From a virus (lineage: Duplodnaviria > Heunggongvirae > Uroviricota > Caudoviricetes): DNA of 8,915 nucleotides. The stretch lies in IMG/VR virus record IMGVR_UViG_3300029157_000022. One strand, given 5' to 3'. Both the position numbers and the translations under genes were made by a program. The notes beneath the pieces are model-generated. The model had not been told where the DNA came from. It was given only the letters and a program-made list of their open reading frames with translations, and ran no database searches. This document shows positions 1-8,915 of the stretch, piece after piece. Position 1 is the first letter of the stretch; the number at the start of each line of letters is the position of its first letter.

Positions 1-69
1 TCTGAGGCAGCACCTGGCACGGCTGGGACGGAAGTCGCTGTCGTTTTCAAAATCGGTGGAGCTGCATGA
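1..69 (+). CDS. Possible 3' end of an upstream gene running off the left edge (frame 1, ...[22 protein letters not shown], stop TGA 67-69); partial
   Basis: Frame 1 is open from the window edge to TGA at 67-69, with Ala/Gly/Thr/Val-rich codons like the downstream genes. Frame 2 is also open to TAA at 110-112, so the frame is uncertain. Too short to call firmly. Confidence 0.2.
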
Positions 70-136
70 CAAAGTCATCGGGCATTATCTGAACATAAAA
101 CACTATCAATAAGTTGGAGTCATTACCAACAACTGA

Positions 137-148
137 AAGGAAAATAAT
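137..148 (+). promoter_or_regulatory. Ribosome-binding region of gene 1 (AAGGAAAATAAT; AGGA core 10 nt before the ATG)
   Basis: Purine-rich Shine-Dalgarno-like AAGGA at 137-141, ATG at 152. The identical 12-mer recurs before gene 2. Confidence 0.6.
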
Positions 149-151
149 CTT

Positions 152-535
152 ATGGCTAACCCATATGGAAAATTAAAAGCAGTGAATGCGGATAACTCCC
201 GTTCACGCTGTAAGGTAGTAGCTTACGCTGCTGATCCAGTGCTGCAAGATCGCCTCGTCAAACTGGCTTCACCTCTCACTGACGATCTTATTGTCGGGGC
301 TTTGCTGAAAGCCGATGGCACCAAAGCAACAACCGCTTCTGATATTGCTCACGTAGTAGTTGAACCGGCTTATGAAGGACAGGAAAGCGTAGTGGTTGCA
401 CATCCTACTTTCGTTATTCTGGCTGAAGATGGGATTGAATTTAACAGCATGGAAAAGGCAAGTGTTATTGCAAAACTGCAATCTCTCGGCTTTGTAATTG
501 CTGGTTATGAAGAACTTGCGATCCCTACGACTTAA
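152..535 (+). CDS. Hypothetical protein, 127 aa; candidate small virion-associated (decoration-like) protein, function unassigned
   Basis: ORF with ATG at 152 and TAA at 533-535, preceded by a strong AAGGA RBS. First of a co-directional gene pair (127 aa then 343 aa) separated by 14 nt. No family recognised by eye. Confidence 0.8.
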   Translation: MANPYGKLKAVNADNSRSRCKVVAYAADPVLQDRLVKLASPLTDDLIVGALLKADGTKATTASDIAHVVVEPAYEGQESVVVAHPTFVILAEDGIEFNSMEKASVIAKLQSLGFVIAGYEELAIPTT

Positions 536-536
536 C

Positions 537-548
537 AAGGAAAATAAT
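537..548 (+). promoter_or_regulatory. Ribosome-binding region of gene 2 (AAGGAAAATAAT; identical 12-mer to 137-148)
   Basis: Exact repeat of the 12-mer found before gene 1, here ending 1 nt before the ATG at 550. Confidence 0.6.
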
Positions 549-549
549 A

Positions 550-1581
550 ATGAATGATTTATCAACATATTTTGGCGTTAATACTGCGGTAGTAACTCCA
601 TTTGCTTATGAGAATGCACTTAATACCCTGATTACTAATCTCGATCTGTTCGATGTGCAATATCATACAGAAAACAGCATTCTTCTTACCGACCTGATTG
701 AGCAGTTTGTGCAGGTAGCCGGGGAAACCTCGCCTTACACTCAAAGCAACTGGAACGCTTCTAAACGTCAGGAATGGTCAAACAAACTTTTCCAGATGAA
801 ACACGTCGGCAGTATTAACGCTGTTACTTCTCGTGACCTGGAACAATACAGCCGCCAATATCCAAACCGTTCTGATGCTATGCTGGTAGCGGTTAATGAT
901 TTCTCTGAGGCTCATTACCGTTCACACGCAAACCGTGTTGAAGTGGATCTGATTACCGCGCTGCTGGGACTGAAAGTTGAATCTGAATATGCCGGACAAG
1001 GTGATCTCGACTTCCTCGACGGTCAGGCTAAAACCACGGTACCCGCTATCGACTTTGCATCGACTACTGTTAACCCGTTCCTTGCTATTCGTAAAGCGGT
1101 GCGCTTACAGAGTGAAAAGCTGGGGTCTGGTCTTGCTGCAAAGCGAACTGGTGTAATTATCTTTGCTGCTGGCGCTGCTGCTGATGGTTTGTCATCTAAC
1201 CCGCTGATCAGTGACATGGTGAAATATGCAGGCGATGCGAGTGCTACGGCCCTGTTTACCCGTATGGTTGATTCTAACCCAGCCTATGACTCTTTCCAGA
1301 TTGGTGGGATCACTGTTATTGATGTGTCAATGTTTCCTGAGATTGTTGCTCACATCGGAGAGAACGGTTTCGCAATTGTCCCGGTAATGGATAAAGCGGC
1401 ACAGTGTTACCAGCTTCATAGCGGCGTTGGTGTGCGTCATGCTGAGTTAGGTCAAGATGCCGTGTTGCATCACCAATATCTAATCAAGGATGAATTCCAA
1501 TTCCCATCTGTGGTTACTGAGACATCTTATCTGCCAGTAAACAACATTCCGCAAGCTATCATCTTCGGATCTGCTGCGTAA
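550..1581 (+). CDS. Hypothetical protein, 343 aa; Ala/Val/Thr/Ser/Asn-rich, candidate major structural (capsid-like) protein, unverified
   Basis: Long ORF (ATG 550, TAA 1579-1581) with a strong RBS and a 14-nt gap after gene 1. The size and small-upstream-partner arrangement resemble decoration/major-capsid gene pairs. No catalytic motif recognised. Confidence 0.85.
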   Translation: MNDLSTYFGVNTAVVTPFAYENALNTLITNLDLFDVQYHTENSILLTDLIEQFVQVAGETSPYTQSNWNASKRQEWSNKLFQMKHVGSINAVTSRDLEQYSRQYPNRSDAMLVAVNDFSEAHYRSHANRVEVDLITALLGLKVESEYAGQGDLDFLDGQAKTTVPAIDFASTTVNPFLAIRKAVRLQSEKLGSGLAAKRTGVIIFAAGAAADGLSSNPLISDMVKYAGDASATALFTRMVDSNPAYDSFQIGGITVIDVSMFPEIVAHIGENGFAIVPVMDKAAQCYQLHSGVGVRHAELGQDAVLHHQYLIKDEFQFPSVVTETSYLPVNNIPQAIIFGSAA

Positions 1582-1593
1582 TAAAGCATTAAT

Positions 1594-1611
1594 AGACGAT
1601 TCCCATCGTCT
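1594..1611 (+). promoter_or_regulatory. Perfect hairpin (7-bp stem AGACGAT/ATCGTCT, 4-nt loop TCCC) just downstream of gene 2; possible attenuator or RNA-stability element
   Basis: Inverted repeat read directly in the sequence. It is not followed immediately by a U-tract; a T-rich run lies further downstream at about 1672-1687. Confidence 0.3.
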
Positions 1612-1734
1612 GGAAAATAATGGTAAAGGGATTAACTAACCTGTAGGCGCAAATACAGTAACGAATCTCTTTGCCCTTTTTGTTTTTCTACTGTCTACAA
1701 ACCCAAATAAAAATATATATGTGAGAGAAAACCA

Positions 1735-1932
1735 ATGAATACAGAAAATTCACAGGCATTAATTCTTAAATCTGTAAAAGAACTGGCAGCTATTAGCGAT
1801 GACTCAATAATCAATGTCAGTGCCTTATGCAGAATGCTTTCAATTGATGCAAATAATGTGCGTCAGCGTGTCTTTCAGACTGGATGTAGCACTTTCGAAG
1901 CAATCCAATATTATTGCTCTAAAAAACAATAA
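1735..1932 (+). CDS. Small hypothetical protein, 65 aa; possible helix-turn-helix-like segment
   Basis: ORF with ATG at 1735 and TAA at 1930-1932, preceded by a weak purine-rich RBS (GAGAGAAA). The segment VSALCRMLSIDANNVRQRV loosely fits a helix-turn-helix pattern. The gene is short, so less certain. Confidence 0.5.
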   Translation: MNTENSQALILKSVKELAAISDDSIINVSALCRMLSIDANNVRQRVFQTGCSTFEAIQYYCSKKQ

Positions 1933-1966
1933 CAAACAACAATCATAATACAGGGAAACAATTAGC

Positions 1967-3808
1967 ATGTTAGAGCTAAACGTGGCACGCCTCTCGAACG
2001 TTGTCACCTTCGAAGTTAACCGACCATCATTAGAGAAAGCAAAAGCAGAAGTAGAAAAACTTCGTAAACAAATGGCGGCGGTGAAAGATATAGAATTGCG
2101 TGTTAAGACACATAAACAATCAACCGCTAAAGCAAAAAAAGACGTAGACGATATTGCTAAAAAGCAAGCACAGGCTGATAAAGCTAATGCTAAAGCACAA
2201 TTAGCCGCTCAACGTGTAGTTGCAAGAGAACAAAAAGCCCTGGCAGCACGCAAAGAGAAGGCAGAATTAAAGCTTTTAGACGTTGGATCAAGCATTAGTG
2301 CAATGCACCGTCTTTCTGTAGCGGAACAATATAAAGCTATTGCACAGGCTAGAGAAATTGCCCTCCAATATGAAAGAGGAGCTATTAGTCTGGCACGTAT
2401 GAATAGCCAAATGAAACGCCTACAACAGCAACAACGTAAGATTAATGGCAATCGTAACGCTCACGCTAAAGCCTATGCACCTGTTAAGGGTAGCGGGAGT
2501 ATTGGCGGCGGTGCTGCGGCTGTTATGCTGGGTGGCTTAGGCGCTGGCGCTACGTATATGGCTATGAGCAAAGCCTCTGAATTTGTTACTAACAGCTTTG
2601 CGAATGCTGAAACGCTGGGTGAATTGTATAGCCGTGCGAAGCTGGGCGGTGTAGACGTTAACCAGATGAACAATATTGAACAATGGGCTTATAAAAACGG
2701 CGTTGATTCAATGATGGGCGAACAAGGTAAACGTAAGTATCTCGATCAGATGAAAGATGTACGGGAGAAGGCTACTAAATCTTATGATGAGGCTGAATAT
2801 GTAGTTGATAAGAAAACTGGTAAAGGAGAATGGAAGGGCGGCGATAGCGGCATCAATACTTTAATGAATGAAGGATTCCTAACTAAAAAGGATCTAAAAG
2901 ACTTTGCTGATAATCCGGCTGGTCTGGTTAGTAAAGCAGTTCAGGGAATGGTAGCTAAAGGCTATTCAGATGCACAAATCGGTAGTCGTCTGGAAGATCT
3001 GGCTGATGATTTGATGCTCACCTCTAAATACTGGACACGCTCCGCTAAAGAAGTGGAACAATCAGCACGAGAACAACGAGAATCAGGGCGCTGGGTAACG
3101 CAGGCACAACAGGAAAGCGTTATTAAATTCCGTGAACTGAATAATGCACTTAGTGGGCTTTCTGACTCACAAGGGATCGCCTTTGTTGATGGCTTTATGA
3201 AATCTCTTGATCCGAAAGTGATTGAAGAGTTTAAAAAGAGCATGGTTGCAATGCTGCCAATGTTTACCAAATTAGGCGAGGCTATCGGCGGATTGGTTAA
3301 CGCTGTAATGAAAGCAATCAACTGGCTGATGAAAAACGACGAGAAGACGGCTGCTATTCAAAAGAATTTAGGTGATGCACCGCCACTGTCTAACGAAGGA
3401 ATGAAGCAGAATCTTTCTAATCTCACTCCTAACCAATATAAAGGCGCTGGCACCGGAACAACTAAGCCAGATAACAGCAATTCCCTGGTTAACACTATTA
3501 AAGGCTGGTTTACGCCAGAAGAGACGGTAGGCGGGGCGCAGGCTGTAAATCAATACACTCTCGAAGGACAAAACATTGCAAATCTGAAACAGAGTGCAGC
3601 ACAACAAGCTATCAAGACTCCTTCTTACACCTTTGCACCTGTTATTAACTTCAATCCAGAATTACAAGTAAATGCAGAAGTGCCGCTAACTATCGAATCA
3701 GACACCGGACGATTGAGCGAATTTATCGACTTCAAATCAAAGGCATCTTCCGCTGAGTTTAGCAAGCTATTAACGCTGGGTGTTATGTCAGGCGGGTCAA
3801 CCTATTAA
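1967..3808 (+). CDS. Hypothetical 613 aa protein: N-terminal Lys/Ala/Gln-rich coiled coil, glycine-zipper hydrophobic segment (aa 175-200), then a roughly 400 aa C-terminal region of unknown function
   Basis: ORF with ATG at 1967 and TAA at 3806-3808; RBS AGGGAAA at 1952-1958. Residues about 20-165 are heptad-like and charged (KAKAEVEKLRKQ...AKKQAQADKANAKAQLAAQ). Residues 175-200 read GSGSIGGGAAAVMLGGLGAGATYMAM (nt 2489-2566). Confidence 0.9.
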   Translation: MLELNVARLSNVVTFEVNRPSLEKAKAEVEKLRKQMAAVKDIELRVKTHKQSTAKAKKDVDDIAKKQAQADKANAKAQLAAQRVVAREQKALAARKEKAELKLLDVGSSISAMHRLSVAEQYKAIAQAREIALQYERGAISLARMNSQMKRLQQQQRKINGNRNAHAKAYAPVKGSGSIGGGAAAVMLGGLGAGATYMAMSKASEFVTNSFANAETLGELYSRAKLGGVDVNQMNNIEQWAYKNGVDSMMGEQGKRKYLDQMKDVREKATKSYDEAEYVVDKKTGKGEWKGGDSGINTLMNEGFLTKKDLKDFADNPAGLVSKAVQGMVAKGYSDAQIGSRLEDLADDLMLTSKYWTRSAKEVEQSAREQRESGRWVTQAQQESVIKFRELNNALSGLSDSQGIAFVDGFMKSLDPKVIEEFKKSMVAMLPMFTKLGEAIGGLVNAVMKAINWLMKNDEKTAAIQKNLGDAPPLSNEGMKQNLSNLTPNQYKGAGTGTTKPDNSNSLVNTIKGWFTPEETVGGAQAVNQYTLEGQNIANLKQSAAQQAIKTPSYTFAPVINFNPELQVNAEVPLTIESDTGRLSEFIDFKSKASSAEFSKLLTLGVMSGGSTY

Positions 3809-3818
3809 TCATCACTGT

Positions 3819-3834
3819 GGGGCGGTTTAGCCCC
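3819..3834 (+). promoter_or_regulatory. GC hairpin (GGGGC / GCCCC, 6-nt loop) between gene 4 stop and gene 5 RBS
   Basis: Inverted repeat read directly in the sequence. No U-tract follows, so it is not a classic terminator. Confidence 0.25.
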
Positions 3835-3855
3835 CTTAAATAAGGATTACAAATT

Positions 3856-4533
3856 ATGGCAATGGGTCCGTTAACCATTGGTCGCCCGACTGAGGCGAAA
3901 ATCAACAGCACAAGCAACGATAGCAACGGTAGAACAACTAAAGGGGGTAACGGCTTTGCGATCATTACCTCTAACCTCGGCAGTGGTGCAAATGCTGCTT
4001 ACAATGACTACCAGGCATTATCATTTGATAGCGTGGAATCGACGAAAGTTAGCCGAAATGCAGACGTTACAAGCTATGCCGTCGAATCAGGATCAGAAGT
4101 TAGTGATCATGTTCAAATACGGAATAACAAGTTCACATTACAAGGGCGTATCTCTGAAACCGTATTGAAGCTCAATCCCGATATGATTAAGAATGCGGGA
4201 ATTAACGGCAATCGACGTATGCTTATGCTTGAATACCTAAATCAGTTGATGGACAGTCGCCAACCTTTCCTACTTGTCACTGAGTTAAAAAATTATGACA
4301 ACGTTGTGTTAGTTGGCATGTCTTACGCAGAAGAAGCAAGCGAAAGCCTATTGTTTACTCTTGATTTTGAGCAAATCCGTCTTGTCTCTAAAGCAACTAC
4401 AAGCGCAATTGCGGTAAAAACAGCACCAAATAAATCTGTAGGGGGACAGGTTAAAATGCAGGTAAATACAACAGAACAGAAAAATCAAAAAAGCCCAGGG
4501 CAAGACGTTGTAACGCCAGTATTTAAACAATAG
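3856..4533 (+). CDS. Hypothetical protein, 225 aa; Ser/Thr/Asn/Gly-rich N-terminal region and Lys/Gln-rich C-terminal tail
   Basis: ORF with ATG at 3856 and TAG at 4531-4533; RBS AAGGA at 3842-3846. Last gene of the co-directional module. Confidence 0.8.
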   Translation: MAMGPLTIGRPTEAKINSTSNDSNGRTTKGGNGFAIITSNLGSGANAAYNDYQALSFDSVESTKVSRNADVTSYAVESGSEVSDHVQIRNNKFTLQGRISETVLKLNPDMIKNAGINGNRRMLMLEYLNQLMDSRQPFLLVTELKNYDNVVLVGMSYAEEASESLLFTLDFEQIRLVSKATTSAIAVKTAPNKSVGGQVKMQVNTTEQKNQKSPGQDVVTPVFKQ

Positions 4534-4574
4534 CCTTAAACGCCTATGAAACGCTCTGTAACGAGATAATCATA

Positions 4575-4610
4575 AAAGAGGCATCAGTCTATATTGAAGC
4601 CTCTTTATTA
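4575..4610. terminator. Candidate bidirectional terminator between the convergent module and the integrase gene (8-bp stem AAAGAGGC/GCCTCTTT, 16-nt loop, then TTATTA)
   Basis: Inverted repeat at 4575-4582 and 4599-4606, in the 80-nt gap between the gene 5 stop (4533) and the integrase stop (4614). The loop is long and the U-tract is imperfect. Confidence 0.45.
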
Positions 4611-4613
4611 CGT

Positions 4614-5891
4614 CTACAGCGTTGTTTTACGCCTTAAATTTGATTTTTTATTGATTGATAAGCCTTTCTCTATTTCAGGGTAGCGTAAAAGCTCAATATA
4701 TTTTTTAAGCTCTACTGGAGAAGCTGCATTCTTGCTATATGTGCGGAATGTTTCTGTATTGCCGCGTGTATGGCCCAGGAGAAGGGCGATCCTGTCTTCT
4801 GGAATTTGATTTCGATCAAGAAGCTGTGCTACTCCGTGTCTCAGAGAATGAAACACTTTCCTTTCTGTTCCCTTTTCCCCTAAAGCCTTTCGTTTAGCTC
4901 TTGTAAATCTCTGCGTATGCCACGTGGAACGTTTACCATCAGCACGCTCTGTAATGCTGGCGTGATAGAACAAAAAGCCATTGTGAGGCTTTTCACGCAG
5001 CGACAACACCAACGGAGTGATAAGGCTATGTACAGGCACAACACGTGCCGCTGCTTTCGTCTTTCCCTGTGTGATTTCAAAACACAGCACACCTTCGATC
5101 TCTTTCACATCGTCTATTGTGAGACTTGCTATCTCATTGATCCGCATACCTGTATAGGCACCGATAAGACACAAAGCCATCATTTCTTTGTTTTCTGCTG
5201 AATCACCGGAAAATACTTGCAACACCTGCAATAGCTCTTTGTTAGAAAATGCCTCGTAGCTCTCTCTACTTTGTGCCACATCAAGCCTATGCCCTCGCCA
5301 GGGGGAGAGCGCCCTTTCTGGCGCATCGTGGTAACGTGATGAAGCTAATTCCCATAGCTGGGCCATTGGGCTGATATAATTTGCAATTGATTGTTGTGAA
5401 AGGGTTTTTTGCATGTGTTCAATCCAGCCTGTAACAGTGGTGCGGCTTACATCTTGCAATGCAATATCAGGCTTTTTACGGTAGGAGAGAAACATCTCTA
5501 CCGCTTTTCTTGCCTTAGCTAAAGTGGCTGGCTTATTCTTCGTGCTGTTAATTGTCAGGTAGATTTCAAGAATTTTAAGCAATGACGGACACGAAGACGC
5601 TGTATCTTGCATTCTGGTAGCTGTTTTGGCGTATTTAGCCTTACTGCGTAACAGTTCCAGCGTGTTTTCTATTGTGCTGTTTACAGGGGCGACACTCTCC
5701 CGTAAGCAATGGTATTCATCTGCAATCTGATCACGCTTTCTACGTGCAACACGAAGATTACTTGTGTGTAGACTTCTGACAAACGTCCTTTTTCCTTCAA
5801 AAAAGGGCTGCATATACACAGGCAGCGTTATCCTTAAATAGTAGTTACCGTAAGAATCACAGATTAAGTATTGGTTAGGCTTGTATCTCAT
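4614..5891 (-). CDS. int: Tyrosine recombinase / phage-type integrase (425 aa from the RBS-supported ATG; the open frame continues to a TTG at 5978)
   Basis: Catalytic-domain signatures are present: GMRINE (box I Arg), HSLRHG (His-x-x-Arg), LLGH, and a terminal Tyr in FRTYSK. The ATG at 5889-5891 has GGAG 5 nt upstream on the minus strand. The gene lies beside a tRNA 3' fragment. Confidence 0.9.
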   Translation of the reverse strand: MRYKPNQYLICDSYGNYYLRITLPVYMQPFFEGKRTFVRSLHTSNLRVARRKRDQIADEYHCLRESVAPVNSTIENTLELLRSKAKYAKTATRMQDTASSCPSLLKILEIYLTINSTKNKPATLAKARKAVEMFLSYRKKPDIALQDVSRTTVTGWIEHMQKTLSQQSIANYISPMAQLWELASSRYHDAPERALSPWRGHRLDVAQSRESYEAFSNKELLQVLQVFSGDSAENKEMMALCLIGAYTGMRINEIASLTIDDVKEIEGVLCFEITQGKTKAAARVVPVHSLITPLVLSLREKPHNGFLFYHASITERADGKRSTWHTQRFTRAKRKALGEKGTERKVFHSLRHGVAQLLDRNQIPEDRIALLLGHTRGNTETFRTYSKNAASPVELKKYIELLRYPEIEKGLSINKKSNLRRKTTL

Positions 5892-5985
5892 AAAATCTCC
5901 GGCTAAAGTGTCGGAGCGTTTGTAATGTGAAAATTGATTGTGATGCATAGAAAATGATGATTTTTCTATAAGATTCAATCAATTA

Positions 5986-6052
5986 GTAATGGTCGTAGGT
6001 GATGGCATTAACACGAGATTAATCGAGTGTTTTACTCCTATTATCGGCACCA
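5986..6052 (+). other. tRNA-Thr-like remnant / attachment-site core: 3'-terminal 19 nt ACTCCTATTATCGGCACCA (6034-6052) plus upstream tRNA-like pieces GTAAT and GGTCGTAGGT (5986-6000); not an intact tRNA
   Basis: The segment ends in the CCA acceptor with a T-arm-like ACTCC. As I recall it, this matches the 3' end of E. coli tRNA-Thr(CGU) thrW. No complete cloverleaf can be formed, since the 5' half is replaced by unrelated sequence. Confidence 0.5.
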
Positions 6053-6178
6053 TTAAAATCAAAGAGTTACCCCATATTTAAATACACCACGTTTCCTCCT
6101 GTGCCGTATTTGTGCCATTGTAACCTTGGCAATTCATCAAAATACTGTTCTGACATCAGGCAGTGCAGGTGCAGACAT

Positions 6179-6499
6179 TTAAGCCAATTGCTGCCGCCAT
6201 TCTTTGACGTAGTCAATCAGGGCGCGGAGCTTTGGTGCAATATTGCGACGCTGTGGGAAATACAGATAGAAGCCCGGAAATTGTGGAAGAAAGTCATCAA
6301 GCAGCGATACAAGCTTACCGCTTTCAATATATGGCCTGAAAGTTTCCTGAGTGGCAATTGTTATTCCTCCGCCGGCAAGAGCCAGCCTCAACATCAGACG
6401 CAGATCATTAGTCGTAATCTGCGGTTCAATCGCAAGGTCGAAAGTTCTCCCGTTTTCTTCAAATGGCCAGCGATAAGGCGCAACCTCCGGGGACTGACG
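6179..6499 (-). pseudogene. yagP: 5'-truncated LysR-family transcriptional regulator remnant (C-terminal part of the effector-binding domain only; no HTH domain)
   Basis: The open frame from the stop at 6500-6502 to the stop at 6179-6181 encodes about 106 aa ending ...GGGITIATQETFRPYIESGKLVSLLDDFLPQFPGFYLYFPQRRNIAPKLRALIDYVKEWRQQLA, typical of a LysR C-terminus. Only 65 nt separate it from the upstream paoD stop, so the N-terminal roughly 200 aa are absent. The symbol is from recalled K-12 synteny. Confidence 0.6.
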
Positions 6500-6567
6500 C
6501 TAGCCGATACACTTATGGGTATTTCCCCCGGAGGCGAGAAAGCGCTCTCCACGCCCGGCCGCAAGGA

Positions 6568-7524
6568 TCAGGACGACGGGGGCAGGCATGAATCCTCCTC
6601 CTGATGGAGACGTACAGAGGCGACTTCTGCCAGCACGGAGAGTGCCAGAGTATGCGCATCCCGGGCTTTGGGGAATATCCCGACGGGTGCCCGGATTTGC
6701 GTTGTTTCCTCCCTGGACCATCCCAGCTCGTGGAGCTTTTGCAGACGTAACGTGTGGGTTCGATAGCTGCCCAATGCGCCGAGATAAAAGGGTTTTGCTT
6801 CTCGCGCGGCCTGCAACACTGGCAGCTCCCGGTTGAGATCATGGCACAGCAAAATGACCGCCGTATCGGTATCGATCTGAGCGCTGGCTGAGGCCGGAAA
6901 AAGATCGAAGATATGGCTGTCATAGCCTGTGGCTGCTGCAAGACTCGCGGTTGCCTGCGCCTCAAGAGAACGTCCGTAAATCATCAGCCTGACGCATGGC
7001 CTGAACCCCACCTCAAAGCCATTGAGATTCCAGCCCGTCCGGGTTTGCGTGGGCAGGCACACCAGCGATTGTGCTTGCGGATCGTAGCGCAGCCCCACCG
7101 GTTTTCTCTGTTCCAGGCGGTTCAGCACGGCGAGCAGAGGCTGTGCCGAGCGTAGTTTATGGAGCGTCAGCGTGATCCCACCGCCGCAGGGCAGAACGAT
7201 GTCAAACCACGGCGAACCTTCGCCATAGCGAATTTCGCGATCGCGGCCTGAGCCCATCATCTCCAGCGCTTCAAAAGCGGCAGCGGCCTCCACGCAGCCG
7301 CCAGAGACAAAACCGCAGTAACGACCATCTTCGCGCACCACCATCTGCGCCCCGAGCGGGCGCGCCGCGCCGCCGCGTATCTCCACCAGCGTCACCAGCA
7401 CCGCTCCTTTACCGGACATTAGCGCCTCTACGGCGAAGCGCAGAATGGTCCGGTGGTCATCGGTGAGAAACGCCTGCTCTGGCTTATGCCAGTGTTCGTC
7501 TTTGTCAAAAAGCGGGTATGACAT
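6568..7524 (-). CDS. paoD: XdhC-family molybdenum cofactor insertion chaperone for aldehyde oxidoreductase (318 aa)
   Basis: ORF of 318 aa with ATG at 7522-7524 and a perfect GGAGG 5 nt upstream. It lies immediately downstream of the molybdopterin-subunit gene, and the product and symbol follow from that synteny and a recalled match to E. coli yagQ/paoD. Confidence 0.75.
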   Translation of the reverse strand: MSYPLFDKDEHWHKPEQAFLTDDHRTILRFAVEALMSGKGAVLVTLVEIRGGAARPLGAQMVVREDGRYCGFVSGGCVEAAAAFEALEMMGSGRDREIRYGEGSPWFDIVLPCGGGITLTLHKLRSAQPLLAVLNRLEQRKPVGLRYDPQAQSLVCLPTQTRTGWNLNGFEVGFRPCVRLMIYGRSLEAQATASLAAATGYDSHIFDLFPASASAQIDTDTAVILLCHDLNRELPVLQAAREAKPFYLGALGSYRTHTLRLQKLHELGWSREETTQIRAPVGIFPKARDAHTLALSVLAEVASVRLHQEEDSCLPPSS

Positions 7525-7533
7525 TGTTCCTCC

Positions 7534-8915
7534 TTAAACCACATCCGGCAGCTTATCGAGCAGCTTATCCAGAGTGATGGGATAATCCCGTACCCGAATA
7601 CCGGTGGCGTTATACACCGCGTTGGCGATAGCCGCGCTCACGCCGCACAGGCCCAGCTCACCGACACCTTTGGCCTTCATCGGGGAGGATATGGGGTCGG
7701 TATCATCCAGGAAAATCACCTCCTGTTTTGGGATATCCGCATGAACCGGCACCTCATACCCCGCCATATCGTGATTAACGAAGTAGCCCAAACGGTCATC
7801 CACCGCCAGCTCCTCCATCAGTGCCGCGCCCATGCCCATAGTCATTGCGCCAATGACCTGGCTGCGCGCAGTTTTCGGATTCAGGATGCGTCCTGCAGCA
7901 CACACAGCGAGCATACGCCGGACCCGAACTTCTCCCGTCGCGCTATGCACGCCGACCTCCACAAAATGCCCGGCAAAGGTCGACTGCTGGTACTCTTTGC
8001 TCAGTGTTCCGAATTCAATGCTCTCTTCCGCTGTCAGTCTGCCGCCTGCGGTGGCTTCATGTAGCGTGGCGCTTCGGGTACCGTTGGTAATCTTGCCGTC
8101 GGCAAACTGCGACTGCTCAGGATCAAACCCGACTGCCGAGGCAATCATTTCGCGAAGCTTCATACAGGCGGCGTAAACGCCGGAGGTGGAGGTATTCGCG
8201 CCCCATTGTCCACCAGAACCCGCAGAAACCGGGAAACTGGAATCGCCGAGGTGAACCGCAACCTGCTCCAGCGGTACGCCAAGCATTTCCGCTGCCGTCT
8301 GGGCCAGAATGGTGTAGCTGCCGGTGCCAATGTCGGTCATGTCCGTTTCTACGGTAACGGTGCCGTTTTGTTCGAGGTGAACCCGAGCACCCGATTTTTC
8401 CAGCAGATTATTGCGAAAGCCCGCCGCAACACCGTGGCCGACTAGCCACTCCCCGTCGCGCACCTGTCCGGGTGTGGCGTTGCGCTGCTTCCAGCCAAAT
8501 TTATCCGCTCCGGTGCGCAAGCACTCGATAAGCTGACGGCGAGAGAAGCAGCGCGTCGGGTCGGCGGGGTCAACCTGAGTGTCATTCAGGATGCGAAACT
8601 CGACGGGATCGATGCCCGCTTTTTCCGCCAGTTCGTCGATCGCGATTTCGAGCGCCATCAGACCGGGGGCTTCGCCGGGCGCACGCATGGCGTTCCCTTC
8701 CGGCAAATCAAGCGTGGCGAGCCGCAGGCCGGTATGACGATTCGCCCCGGCGTAGAGTAATTCGCTTTGCTGTACCGCCGTTTCCGGCGTGCCGCCGGGC
8801 AGGTTTCCAGACCAGCTTTCATGTGAGATAGCGGTGATTTTCCCGCTCTGGTCGGCACCGATACGCAAGTGCTGAAGGGTGGCGGGGCGGTGCGTGGTGT
8901 TATTGGGAATAGAGG
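7534..8915 (-). CDS. paoC: Aldehyde oxidoreductase molybdopterin-binding large subunit, C-terminal about 460 aa (partial; 5' end beyond the right edge)
   Basis: The frame is open on the minus strand from the window edge to TAA at 7534-7536. The ORF-track start at 8868 is an internal TTG, not the true start. Product and symbol rest on synteny with the downstream chaperone gene and a recalled match to E. coli yagR/paoC. Confidence 0.75.
   Translation of the reverse strand, partial: SIPNNTTHRPATLQHLRIGADQSGKITAISHESWSGNLPGGTPETAVQQSELLYAGANRHTGLRLATLDLPEGNAMRAPGEAPGLMALEIAIDELAEKAGIDPVEFRILNDTQVDPADPTRCFSRRQLIECLRTGADKFGWKQRNATPGQVRDGEWLVGHGVAAGFRNNLLEKSGARVHLEQNGTVTVETDMTDIGTGSYTILAQTAAEMLGVPLEQVAVHLGDSSFPVSAGSGGQWGANTSTSGVYAACMKLREMIASAVGFDPEQSQFADGKITNGTRSATLHEATAGGRLTAEESIEFGTLSKEYQQSTFAGHFVEVGVHSATGEVRVRRMLAVCAAGRILNPKTARSQVIGAMTMGMGAALMEELAVDDRLGYFVNHDMAGYEVPVHADIPKQEVIFLDDTDPISSPMKAKGVGELGLCGVSAAIANAVYNATGIRVRDYPITLDKLLDKLPDVV

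What the first reader, a model, noticed from the sequence alone, without database searches (positions are those of the whole stretch)
5892..6178. Island/chromosome junction with tRNA-Thr 3'-end remnant (attachment-site core)
The 19-nt ACTCCTATTATCGGCACCA at 6034-6052 looks like a tRNA 3' end (T-arm, acceptor, CCA) and matches my recollection of the E. coli thrW 3' terminus. Shorter tRNA-like pieces (GTAAT, GGTCGTAGGT) lie at 5986-6000, separated by about 33 nt of unrelated sequence. This may reflect a degenerate att duplicate or successive integration events. The integrase is divergent from this remnant, and base composition changes around it. The thrW site is a known integration hotspot, so different strains can carry different cargo here.
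Basis: partly seen in the sequence, partly recalled or inferred. Interest (0 to 1): 0.5.

Follow-up and report, generated by a model that had tools for sequence, protein, structure and literature searches.

The report
Island end at thrW tRNA site
This is the right-hand attachment site (attR) of a roughly 12.8-kb phage-like island inserted into the E. coli threonine tRNA gene thrW, a well-known and ordinary kind of junction, although the island's arm carries an oddly split copy of the tRNA.

Summary
ACTCCTATTATCGGCACCA at 6034-6052 is unique in the window and equals nt 58-76 of thrW (tRNA-Thr CGU). In the similar strain ES5 the intact thrW lies 12,774 bp upstream as the partner repeat. 948 of 5426 complete E. 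coli genomes have the uninterrupted site (thrW joined directly to the window's right flank). Left of the core is island DNA, with a tyrosine integrase at 4614-5891 (minus strand). Right of it is chromosome (yagP fragment, paoD, paoC). The crossover lies within 6034-6053.

The shorter pieces (5986-6000) are real thrW sequence, nt 35-39 and 45-54, but they are not a local scar of successive integrations. Together with the 33-nt spacer they are part of the element's own arm. They precede the core in 44 of 44 metagenome and viral loci, which show 13 different downstream 30-mers (at least 7 distinct contexts). About 442 of 444 E. coli carriers have them. Citrobacter relatives with 55% integrase identity keep the same layout.

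This is a textbook tRNA att junction. K-12 has the analogous junction for CP4-6 at the same spot. Novelty and interest are low. The only unexplained feature is the conserved split architecture of the arm.

The parts
1..127 (.). End of an IS1A copy inserted in the island. Not part of the att site.
   Evidence: 100% match to IS1A in thousands of records. Island homology to other strains starts at 128.
4614..5891 (-). Tyrosine integrase of the island, 425 aa, transcribed away from the att core.
   Evidence: Pfam PF20172 DUF6538, PF13102 and PF00589; phrog_1 integrase; annotated as a tyrosine-type recombinase in ES5.
5892..6033 (.). Element-derived arm of attR (P arm), which also holds the integrase leader and presumed promoter region.
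   Evidence: Present only in genomes that carry this integrase (453 of 5426). Absent from empty-site genomes. The distance from the int ATG to the CCA end is 157-166 nt across six of the relatives examined.
5897..5916 (.). Hairpin CTCCGgctaaagtgtCGGAG in the int leader. In the int sense its 3' arm contains the GGAG Shine-Dalgarno sequence.
   Evidence: Picked up by the stem-loop scan. The consensus fold in 7 relatives is weak, -4.1 kcal/mol with 2 compensatory pairs.
5977..5989 (+). IHF-consensus-like motif AATCAATTAGTAA (one mismatch to WATCAANNNNTTR), at the inner edge of the conserved arm.
   Evidence: Read from the sequence. Aligned motifs in relatives match the consensus exactly (L022 AATCAATAACTTA, L024 AATCAATGACTTG). 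The consensus is from my own knowledge; binding was not tested.
5986..6000 (+). thrW-derived 5' piece: GTAAT (thrW 35-39) plus GGTCGTAGGT (thrW 45-54).
   Evidence: Precedes the spacer in 44 of 44 loci, one of them with GCAAT instead of GTAAT. The Citrobacter homologue has GTAgTtGCGAAGGTCGTAG.
6001..6033 (.). 33-nt spacer GATGGCATTAACACGAGATTAATCGAGTGTTTT, with inverted repeat AACAC (6010-6014) and GTGTT (6027-6031) around a 12-nt centre.
   Evidence: Homologous to the 35-nt Citrobacter spacer: alignment score 10 against a shuffle maximum of 7, so 0 of 5000 shuffles reach it. Absent from thrW and from empty sites.
6034..6053 (+). att core. 6034-6052 equals thrW 58-76 (last 3 nt of the T-loop, T-stem 3' strand, acceptor 3' strand, discriminator, CCA), followed by one T. 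This is a 20-nt perfect direct repeat with attL and contains the crossover.
   Evidence: The left partner is constant and the right partners vary, switching right after CACCA(T).
6054..6178 (.). Native chromosomal flank downstream of thrW (B' side).
   Evidence: Identical in K-12 downstream of the CP4-6 repeat. Contiguous with thrW in empty-site genomes.
6179..6517 (-). Truncated LysR-family gene (yagP-like), chromosomal.
   Evidence: Pfam LysR_substrate. RefSeq annotates it as a partial pseudogene in ES5, and it is yagP in K-12.
6568..7524 (-). paoD, chromosomal.
   Evidence: Pfam XdhC_CoxI and XdhC_C; annotated as paoD.
7534..8915 (-). 3' part of paoC. The gene continues beyond the window.
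   Evidence: The reading frame is open to the window edge; annotated as paoC in ES5 and K-12.

Best explanation
Positions 5892-6178 are the attR junction of an integrative element of about 12.8 kb inserted into the 3' end of thrW by its own tyrosine integrase (4614-5891).

Shown: attL is the intact thrW followed by the element's other arm (CACCAT|caagaaaatcaataac). attR is the element arm, then the 20-nt core, then the native downstream flank (CACCAT|taaaatcaaagag). Strand exchange therefore took place within ACTCCTATTATCGGCACCAT (6034-6053). The tRNA stays intact at attL, and a duplicate of its last 19 nt remains here. The 15-nt thrW-like piece and the 33-nt spacer to the left belong to the element's attP arm and are carried from site to site.

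Inferred: the arm provides integrase and IHF-type binding sites. It also holds the int promoter and leader, so integrase may regulate its own expression, as proposed for divergent integrase-tRNA arrangements.
For: - The 19-mer is identical to thrW 58-76 and unique in the window.
- The direct-repeat partner is 12,774 bp upstream, at the intact thrW, in ES5. The same island sits between thrW and yagP/paoD in O104:H4.
- The empty site is contiguous in 948 of 5426 genomes; the 12 listed are 100% identical to the reconstruction.
- The right flank is identical to K-12 downstream of CP4-6.
- The integrase domains are as expected.
- The same arm, spacer and core are joined to 13 different downstream 30-mers, at least 7 distinct contexts (native flanks of several lineages, P4-like arms and other elements), in 44 viral and metagenome loci. 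Tandem arrays also occur. This is the footprint of repeated site-specific recombination at the core.
- Integrase relatives (55-66% identity) sit at the same distance from 3' fragments of thrW or leuX.
- The divergent (OD) integrase/pseudo-tRNA geometry and its predicted autoregulation are described for K-12 ptwF-intF (PMC2951348).
Against: - No excised circular junction (attP) was found in the viral or metagenome collections, so present-day mobility is not shown.
- The intact thrW cannot be seen in the window itself. It is inferred from genomes 98-99% identical to it.
- The island in the source genome carries an IS1 insertion and may be decaying.
- The binding sites and the promoter in the arm are inferred. 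The promoter scan found nothing on the int strand.
Confidence: 0.93

Rival explanations
1. The pieces at 5986-6000 and the 33-nt spacer are a local scar. Two elements integrated one after the other at thrW in this lineage, and the second was then deleted, leaving a composite degenerate att duplicate.
For: - Tandem arrays at thrW are common.
- Sequence just left of the core (GTGTTTT) resembles the attR of other thrW elements, such as GTGTGTTTTTCTCC and GATGTGTTTTGTTCC.
- Rare variants have an uninterrupted copy, GTAATGGTCGTAGGTTCGACTCC.
Against: - The piece and the spacer are linked to the element arm in 44 of 44 loci, whatever lies to the right, and in about 442 of 444 E. coli carriers.
- Citrobacter elements with only 55% integrase identity have the same layout and a homologous spacer.
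- No thrW allele is interrupted by the spacer in 5426 genomes.
- An ancient event of this kind in the element's ancestry is not excluded. An event at this locus is.
Confidence: 0.04
2. The junction is a fossil. The island was fixed here and spread between strains only by homologous recombination of the flanking chromosome. The integrase and att site no longer function.
For: - No attP junction was found in the viral or metagenome collections.
- IS insertions occur in several copies: IS1 in this window, ISKpn26 in O104:H4 and IS3 replacing int in FDAARGOS_1300.
- Some copies have 1-3 nt deletions in the core.
Against: - The integrase ORF is intact here and in most carriers.
- The same arm is joined at the core to many unrelated right-hand partners, including other elements' arms and the flanks of other Escherichia lineages. 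Flank-mediated homologous recombination cannot produce that pattern.
- A 96%-identical integrase has moved to a new site, srsR, with a clean 52-bp duplication.
Confidence: 0.2
3. The 19-mer is a chance match, or an independent decayed tRNA pseudogene unrelated to integration.
For: ARAGORN and Rfam find no tRNA at this position.
Against: - No match is expected by chance.
- The match is exact to thrW.
- The repeat partner, the empty site and the adjacent integrase all fit an att site.
Confidence: 0.01

Closest known systems
Right end of cryptic prophage CP4-6 in E. coli K-12 (pseudo-tRNA ptwF next to intF)
   Same: - The same chromosomal site: thrW on the left and the same flank (ttaaaatcaaagag..., yagP, paoD) on the right.
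- A partial direct repeat of the thrW 3' end at the island/chromosome junction.
- The integrase lies next to attR and diverges from the pseudo-tRNA, the 'OD' shape of PMC2951348.
   Different: - CP4-6 is 34 kb and has a contiguous 49-nt repeat (thrW 28-76).
- IntF is only about 24% identical to this integrase, and only over part of the catalytic domain.
- Here the perfect repeat is 20 nt, and the arm carries a split thrW-like block.
tRNA-gene attachment sites of tyrosine-integrase islands and prophages in general (sublocation classes of Williams 2002; recalled from memory, not read here)
   Same: - The element carries a copy of the tRNA 3' end.
- Integration regenerates the tRNA at attL and leaves the duplicate at attR.
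- The identity block starts in the T-loop, as in the T-loop class.
   Different: - The integrase is next to attR rather than next to the tRNA gene.
- A thrW-derived piece lies 33 nt upstream of the identity block, which the standard model does not predict.
Other thrW islands (PAI III536, the vat/tsh islands, P4-like satellites, CbtA/YeeU islands)
   Same: - They use the same hotspot. thrW is listed among the most targeted tDNAs (PMC7545054).
- They are often stacked in tandem with this element.
- Their crossovers fall in the same CTCCTATTATCG region.
   Different: - Their integrase families differ: P4-like Arm-DNA-bind_3 + Phage_int_M against DUF6538 + SAM_5 here.
- Their arms and cargo differ.
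leuX-targeting relatives of this element in E. coli, Klebsiella and Enterobacter
   Same: - Integrases are 57-66% identical.
- Neighbouring genes are the same (about 613-633 aa protein, Dit-like protein, capsid-like protein).
- The distance from int to the tRNA CCA end is the same.
- Several have an analogous split tRNA-like block with a palindromic spacer.
   Different: - The target is leuX.
- The identity block is 43-66 nt.
- The spacer sequence is different.

Membership tests
attR of a tyrosine-integrase element integrated in a tRNA gene | Exact copy of the 3' end of a host tRNA gene at the island/chromosome boundary | tested here: met
   6034-6052 equals thrW 58-76. It is unique in the window and not expected by chance.
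attR of a tyrosine-integrase element integrated in a tRNA gene | Direct-repeat partner at the intact tRNA gene at the other end of the element | tested here: met
   In ES5, which is 98.4% identical to the window, the repeat pair is 12,774 bp apart and the left copy lies inside the intact thrW. The same holds in O104:H4, FDAARGOS_1300 and VTB96935v. It cannot be seen inside the window itself.
attR of a tyrosine-integrase element integrated in a tRNA gene | Tyrosine recombinase gene next to the att site | tested here: met
   425-aa ORF at 4614-5891 with PF00589, 2.5e-17. Its start codon is 142 nt from the core.
attR of a tyrosine-integrase element integrated in a tRNA gene | Precise empty site (attB) in related strains | tested here: met
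   The reconstructed thrW plus right flank is contiguous in 948 of 5426 genomes; the 12 listed are 100% identical.
attR of a tyrosine-integrase element integrated in a tRNA gene | The same element arm joined at the core to different partners (independent recombination events) | tested here: met
   In 44 of 44 loci the left side is constant, while the right side shows 13 different downstream 30-mers, at least 7 distinct contexts.
attR of a tyrosine-integrase element integrated in a tRNA gene | Detectable excised form (attP junction) | tested here: inconclusive
   The exact 37-nt predicted attP junction is absent from the viral and metagenome contig collections. Absence from assemblies does not exclude excision.
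attR of a tyrosine-integrase element integrated in a tRNA gene | Integrase-dependent integration and excision shown experimentally | not testable with these tools
   Needs wet-lab work.
CP4-6 / IntF-type thrW prophage (K-12) | IntF-like integrase and a 49-nt thrW repeat (nt 28-76) | tested here: not met
   Integrase identity is 24% over 136 aa only. The perfect repeat here is 20 nt.
P4-like integrase islands and satellites at thrW | Integrase with Arm-DNA-bind_3 and Phage_int_M domains | tested here: not met
   Pfam gives DUF6538, Phage_int_SAM_5 and Phage_integrase. P4-like integrases are the separate neighbours in tandem arrays.
Functional tRNA gene | Complete cloverleaf recognised by a tRNA finder or covariance model | tested here: not met
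   ARAGORN finds no tRNA gene in the window. Rfam gives no tRNA hit at E <= 10.

The most novel reading that the evidence does not exclude
The split tRNA-like block may be a functional part of a distinct att-site architecture used by this DUF6538-type integrase family. It consists of a thrW T-arm 5' half, a conserved 33-35-nt palindromic spacer, and the crossover core. The displaced copy of the attB left half-site and the AACAC-N12-GTGTT palindrome could act as accessory binding sites, for integrase, a directionality factor or IHF, or as an operator for int. On this reading they are not evolutionary debris. Analogous split blocks in leuX-targeting relatives would then reflect a shared design.
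Probability: 0.12. Interest if true: 0.35.

Novelty: new member of a known kind. Interest (0 to 1): 0.13.

Why it matters
The junction fixes the right boundary of an accessory element present in about 8% of complete E. coli genomes, including outbreak O104:H4. It shows that everything to the left of about 6034 is mobile cargo and everything to the right is core chromosome. That helps annotation, island typing at the thrW hotspot, and the design of PCR assays for occupancy or excision. It does not change how tRNA-targeted integration is understood. The only open point is why the element's arm keeps a split copy of the tRNA.

Tried and rejected
1. The 33-nt spacer as a relic of a CP4-6-type attR. 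A 9-nt match (GCATTAACA) to the K-12 arm prompted the idea. IntF is unrelated, the offsets differ, and I treat the match as chance.
2. The spacer plus core as a degenerate in-register copy of the thrW 3' half. Ungapped identity is only about 40% by hand count, which is not convincing.
3. A thrW allele interrupted by the spacer, either as the source of the split block or as the by-product of alternative excision. None exists in 5426 genomes.
4. A contiguous form (arm + thrW 45-76 + native flank) as the common state. It is found in only 2 of 444 carriers. It cannot arise from the split form by simple deletion, because the TCG is restored.
5. Similarity between the 52-bp srsR repeat of strain Tig228 and the spacer plus core. 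Not significant, p = 0.26.
6. The excised attP junction in the viral and metagenome collections. None found.
7. Integrase relatives in the GTDB genome set. The single-protein query returned only one near-identical locus, so I obtained relatives through the protein database instead.
8. Phage records. Only distant integrase hits, below 28% identity.
9. Literature on DUF6538. No papers.
10. A sigma-70 promoter for int in the arm. The scan found none on the minus strand.

Full report
**Observation**

ACTCCTATTATCGGCACCA lies at 6034-6052 on the + strand. It is the only match in the window even with three mismatches allowed, and none of 200 shuffles produced one. ARAGORN finds no tRNA gene in the window, and Rfam gives no tRNA hit around the site. 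It is therefore a fragment and not a gene.

The thrW gene read from strain ES5 (L001 7504-7579) is identical to the K-12 copy, and ARAGORN calls it tRNA-Thr with anticodon CGT. Its sequence is GCCGATATAGCTCAGTTGGTAGAGCAGCGCATTCGTAATGCGAAGGTCGTAGGTTCGACTCCTATTATCGGCACCA. The 19-mer equals nt 58-76: the last three T-loop bases, the 3' strands of the T and acceptor stems, the discriminator base and CCA.

GTAAT (5986-5990) equals thrW 35-39, and GGTCGTAGGT (5991-6000) equals thrW 45-54. They are followed by 33 unrelated bases (6001-6033). Taken alone the 10-mer is only modestly unlikely: 0.006 are expected, and the shuffle p-value is 0.012.

The integrase ORF (4614-5891, minus strand) carries DUF6538, a SAM-like domain and the Phage_integrase domain. 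It points away from the fragment. GC content is 0.434 for 1-5891, 0.376 for 5892-6178 and 0.586 for 6179-8915.

**What the locus is**

The window is E. coli chromosome. From position 128 on it is 98.4-98.7% identical to several complete genomes. Positions 1-127 are the end of an IS1A copy.

In ES5 the gene order is as follows:
- proB, proA, thrW;
- an island of about 12.8 kb encoding a DNA invertase, an O-like initiator, small ORFs, a capsid-like 343-aa protein, a 613-aa tape-measure-like protein, a Dit-like 225-aa protein and the integrase;
- a yagP-like LysR fragment, paoD, paoC.

The best direct repeat across that interval pairs GTTCGACTCCTATTATCGGCACCATCAA inside and after thrW with GTTTTACTCCTATTATCGGCACCATTAA at the position of the finding, 12,774 bp apart. 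O104:H4 has the same island at the same place.

Right of the CCA, the window is identical to K-12 downstream of prophage CP4-6.

A synthetic empty site, built from thrW and its upstream sequence joined to window 6053-6352, matches 948 of 5426 genomes as one contiguous place. The 12 listed, including ATCC 8739, are 100% identical. Comparing the three junctions:
- attB: GGTTCGACTCC...CACCAT|taaaatc
- attL: GGTTCGACTCC...CACCAT|caagaaaatc
- attR: gtgttttACTCC...CACCAT|taaaatc

Strand exchange must therefore lie within the 20-nt perfect repeat at 6034-6053.

**Evidence for repeated site-specific recombination**

The element-only part (5500-6033) occurs in 453 genomes. I scanned the viral and metagenome collections for the spacer plus the start of the core and found 44 loci. 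In all 44 the left side is the same arm with the 15-nt piece (one locus has GCAAT instead of GTAAT). The sequence after CACCA(T) shows 13 different 30-mers, falling into at least seven distinct contexts: the native E. coli flank, flanks of other Escherichia lineages, two kinds of P4-like arm, and other elements.

Strain FDAARGOS_1300 shows a tandem array: thrW, this element, a pseudo-tRNA, a P4-like satellite, another pseudo-tRNA, and the vat island. A constant left partner with variable right partners switching at the core is what integrase-mediated recombination leaves behind. Homologous recombination through chromosomal flanks would not produce that pattern.

**The shorter pieces and the spacer**

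The data place these sequences in the element's own arm.
- About 442 of 444 E. coli carriers have the split form.
- A contiguous arm + thrW 45-76 + native flank is essentially never seen.
- The two exceptions are FDAARGOS_1300, where int has been replaced by IS3, and VTB96935v, which has a GGC deletion in the core. thrW is intact in both genomes.

Integrase relatives were found in the protein database and read in their contigs.
- Citrobacter elements with 55% integrase identity have GTAgTtGCGAAGGTCGTAG, then a 35-nt spacer, then ACTCCTATTATCG(G)CACCA.
- That spacer is homologous to the one here. The alignment score is 10 against a shuffle maximum of 7, so none of 5000 shuffles reaches it.
- Both spacers contain AACAC-N12-GTGTT.
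- leuX-targeting relatives (57-66% identity) show an analogous layout: leuX 26-39, a spacer of about 31 nt with a GCTTGC/GCAAGC palindrome, then leuX 43-85. Others carry contiguous copies (L024 has 66 nt of leuX; L022 has at least 30 nt of thrW).
- In six of the relatives the distance from the int start codon to the CCA end is 157-166 nt, and an IHF-consensus-like motif sits at the inner edge of the conserved arm.

No thrW allele interrupted by the spacer exists in 5426 genomes. The split block is therefore old, inherited and element-borne. How it arose and whether it does anything remain open, and I could not resolve this. A crossover in the core never moves sequence that lies to its left. 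The contiguous variants also cannot be derived from the split form by a simple deletion, because the TCG of the T-loop is restored.

**Mechanism**

Shown:
- the identity of the site;
- the boundaries of the insertion;
- the window within which exchange occurred;
- the fact that the arm has been joined to many partners.

Inferred:
- The integrase recombines an attP made of this arm, the 20-nt core and the caagaaaatcaataac arm with the 3' end of thrW. This regenerates the tRNA and leaves this duplicate.
- IHF-type bending sites may flank the core. A perfect consensus match also lies 8 nt past the CCA in the element's other arm and in the native flank (read).
- The int promoter and leader lie inside attR, so integrase binding could repress its own gene. 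Panis et al. proposed this for divergent integrase-tRNA pairs and list K-12 ptwF-intF as one (PMC2951348).
- A small hairpin that includes the int Shine-Dalgarno sequence (5897-5916) is conserved in position, but covariation support is weak.

I found no excised attP junction in the public viral or metagenome contigs. Current activity is therefore unproven.

**Comparison with what is known**

thrW is a recognised integration hotspot (PMC7545054). K-12 carries the analogous junction for CP4-6, whose annotated limits run from thrW nt 28 to the base before a 49-nt repeat. This locus is not a CP4-6 relative:
- IntF is only about 24% identical, over part of the catalytic domain;
- the repeat here is 20 nt.

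It is not a P4-like island either, because the integrase domains differ. It is another member of the ordinary class of tRNA-gene att sites, belonging to an integrase family for which I found no literature.

**Verdict**

This is a routine attR and interest is low. The modest oddity worth recording is the conserved split tRNA-like block in the arm.

Side observations, listed separately:
- the phage-like cargo of the island;
- a 96%-identical integrase that has moved to the srsR gene with a swapped att cassette;
- the IS1 end at the window's left edge.

Noticed in passing
window 1-127: The first 127 nt are the terminal part of an IS1A copy (100% identical; tens of thousands of copies across E. 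coli genomes and plasmids). Homology to the island in other strains begins at 128, so the source strain has an IS1 insertion inside the island.
   Followed up: yes
window 152-4533; L001 7580-14300: The island cargo looks like a miniature phage or satellite. It encodes a capsid-like 343-aa protein (550-1581; phrog_29; relatives hit Pfam Phage_cap_E), a 613-aa tape-measure-like protein (1967-3808; phrog_16051), a Dit-like protein (3856-4533), a lambda-O-like initiator and a DNA invertase. Four iteron-like repeats lie at L001 9961-10103. I identified no terminase or portal among the proteins checked. The element is in about 8% of complete E. coli genomes, including O104:H4, with leuX-borne relatives in Klebsiella and Enterobacter. 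It does not obviously match the satellite families I know.
   Followed up: partly
L027 8071-8122 and 21466-21517 (strain Tig228): A 96.2%-identical integrase with the same arms is integrated inside the LysR gene srsR, flanked by a 52-bp direct repeat. The att cassette is swapped exactly between ...CAATTAGT and AAGAAAATCAATAAC. The integrase differences cluster around residues 150-250. This looks like a recent change of target site.
   Followed up: partly
window 5897-5916: The hairpin CTCCGgctaaagtgtCGGAG lies just upstream of the int start codon. In the int sense its 3' arm contains the GGAG Shine-Dalgarno sequence. The position is conserved in seven relatives, but the consensus fold is weak (-4.1 kcal/mol, 2 compensatory pairs).
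   Followed up: partly
L004 6100-6140 (FDAARGOS_1300); L025 4094-4130 (VTB96935v): Two rare variants lack the 33-nt spacer and have a contiguous GTAATGGTCGTAGGTTCGACTCC... copy. One lies next to a P4-like satellite and its int has been replaced by IS3. The other lies next to the native flank and has a GGC deletion in the core. How the T-loop TCG was restored is unexplained.
   Followed up: partly
L008 (FDAARGOS_1300), reverse strand 5167, 17235 and 33944: Three thrW-core copies delimit a tandem array at thrW: this element, a P4-like satellite, and the vat island. The pao genes are missing downstream. Many metagenome loci also place this element directly upstream of a P4-like integrase.
   Followed up: partly
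L003 (O104:H4 2009EL-2071), attR: The attR core in O104:H4 has a 1-nt deletion (ATTATCG-CACCA). The same deletion is seen in the attR of several other thrW elements (L006, L007) and in some metagenome copies. In O104:H4 the island's Dit-like gene is also split by ISKpn26.
   Followed up: no
window 6179-6517; L007 7143-8042: The LysR-family gene next to the att site is a C-terminal fragment here and in most strains (yagP). O157:H7 F3113 has a full-length 900-nt LysR gene, plus extra genes, between the att site and paoD. The native flank is itself variable.
   Followed up: no
window 6055-6070; L001 7586-7600: Sequence just past the CCA is similar in the native flank (TTAAAATCAAAGAGTTA) and in the element's other arm (TCAAGAAAATCAATAACTTA). 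Both contain a perfect match to the IHF consensus WATCAANNNNTTR. The resemblance between attP and attB therefore extends about 25 nt beyond the tRNA in degenerate form.
   Followed up: no
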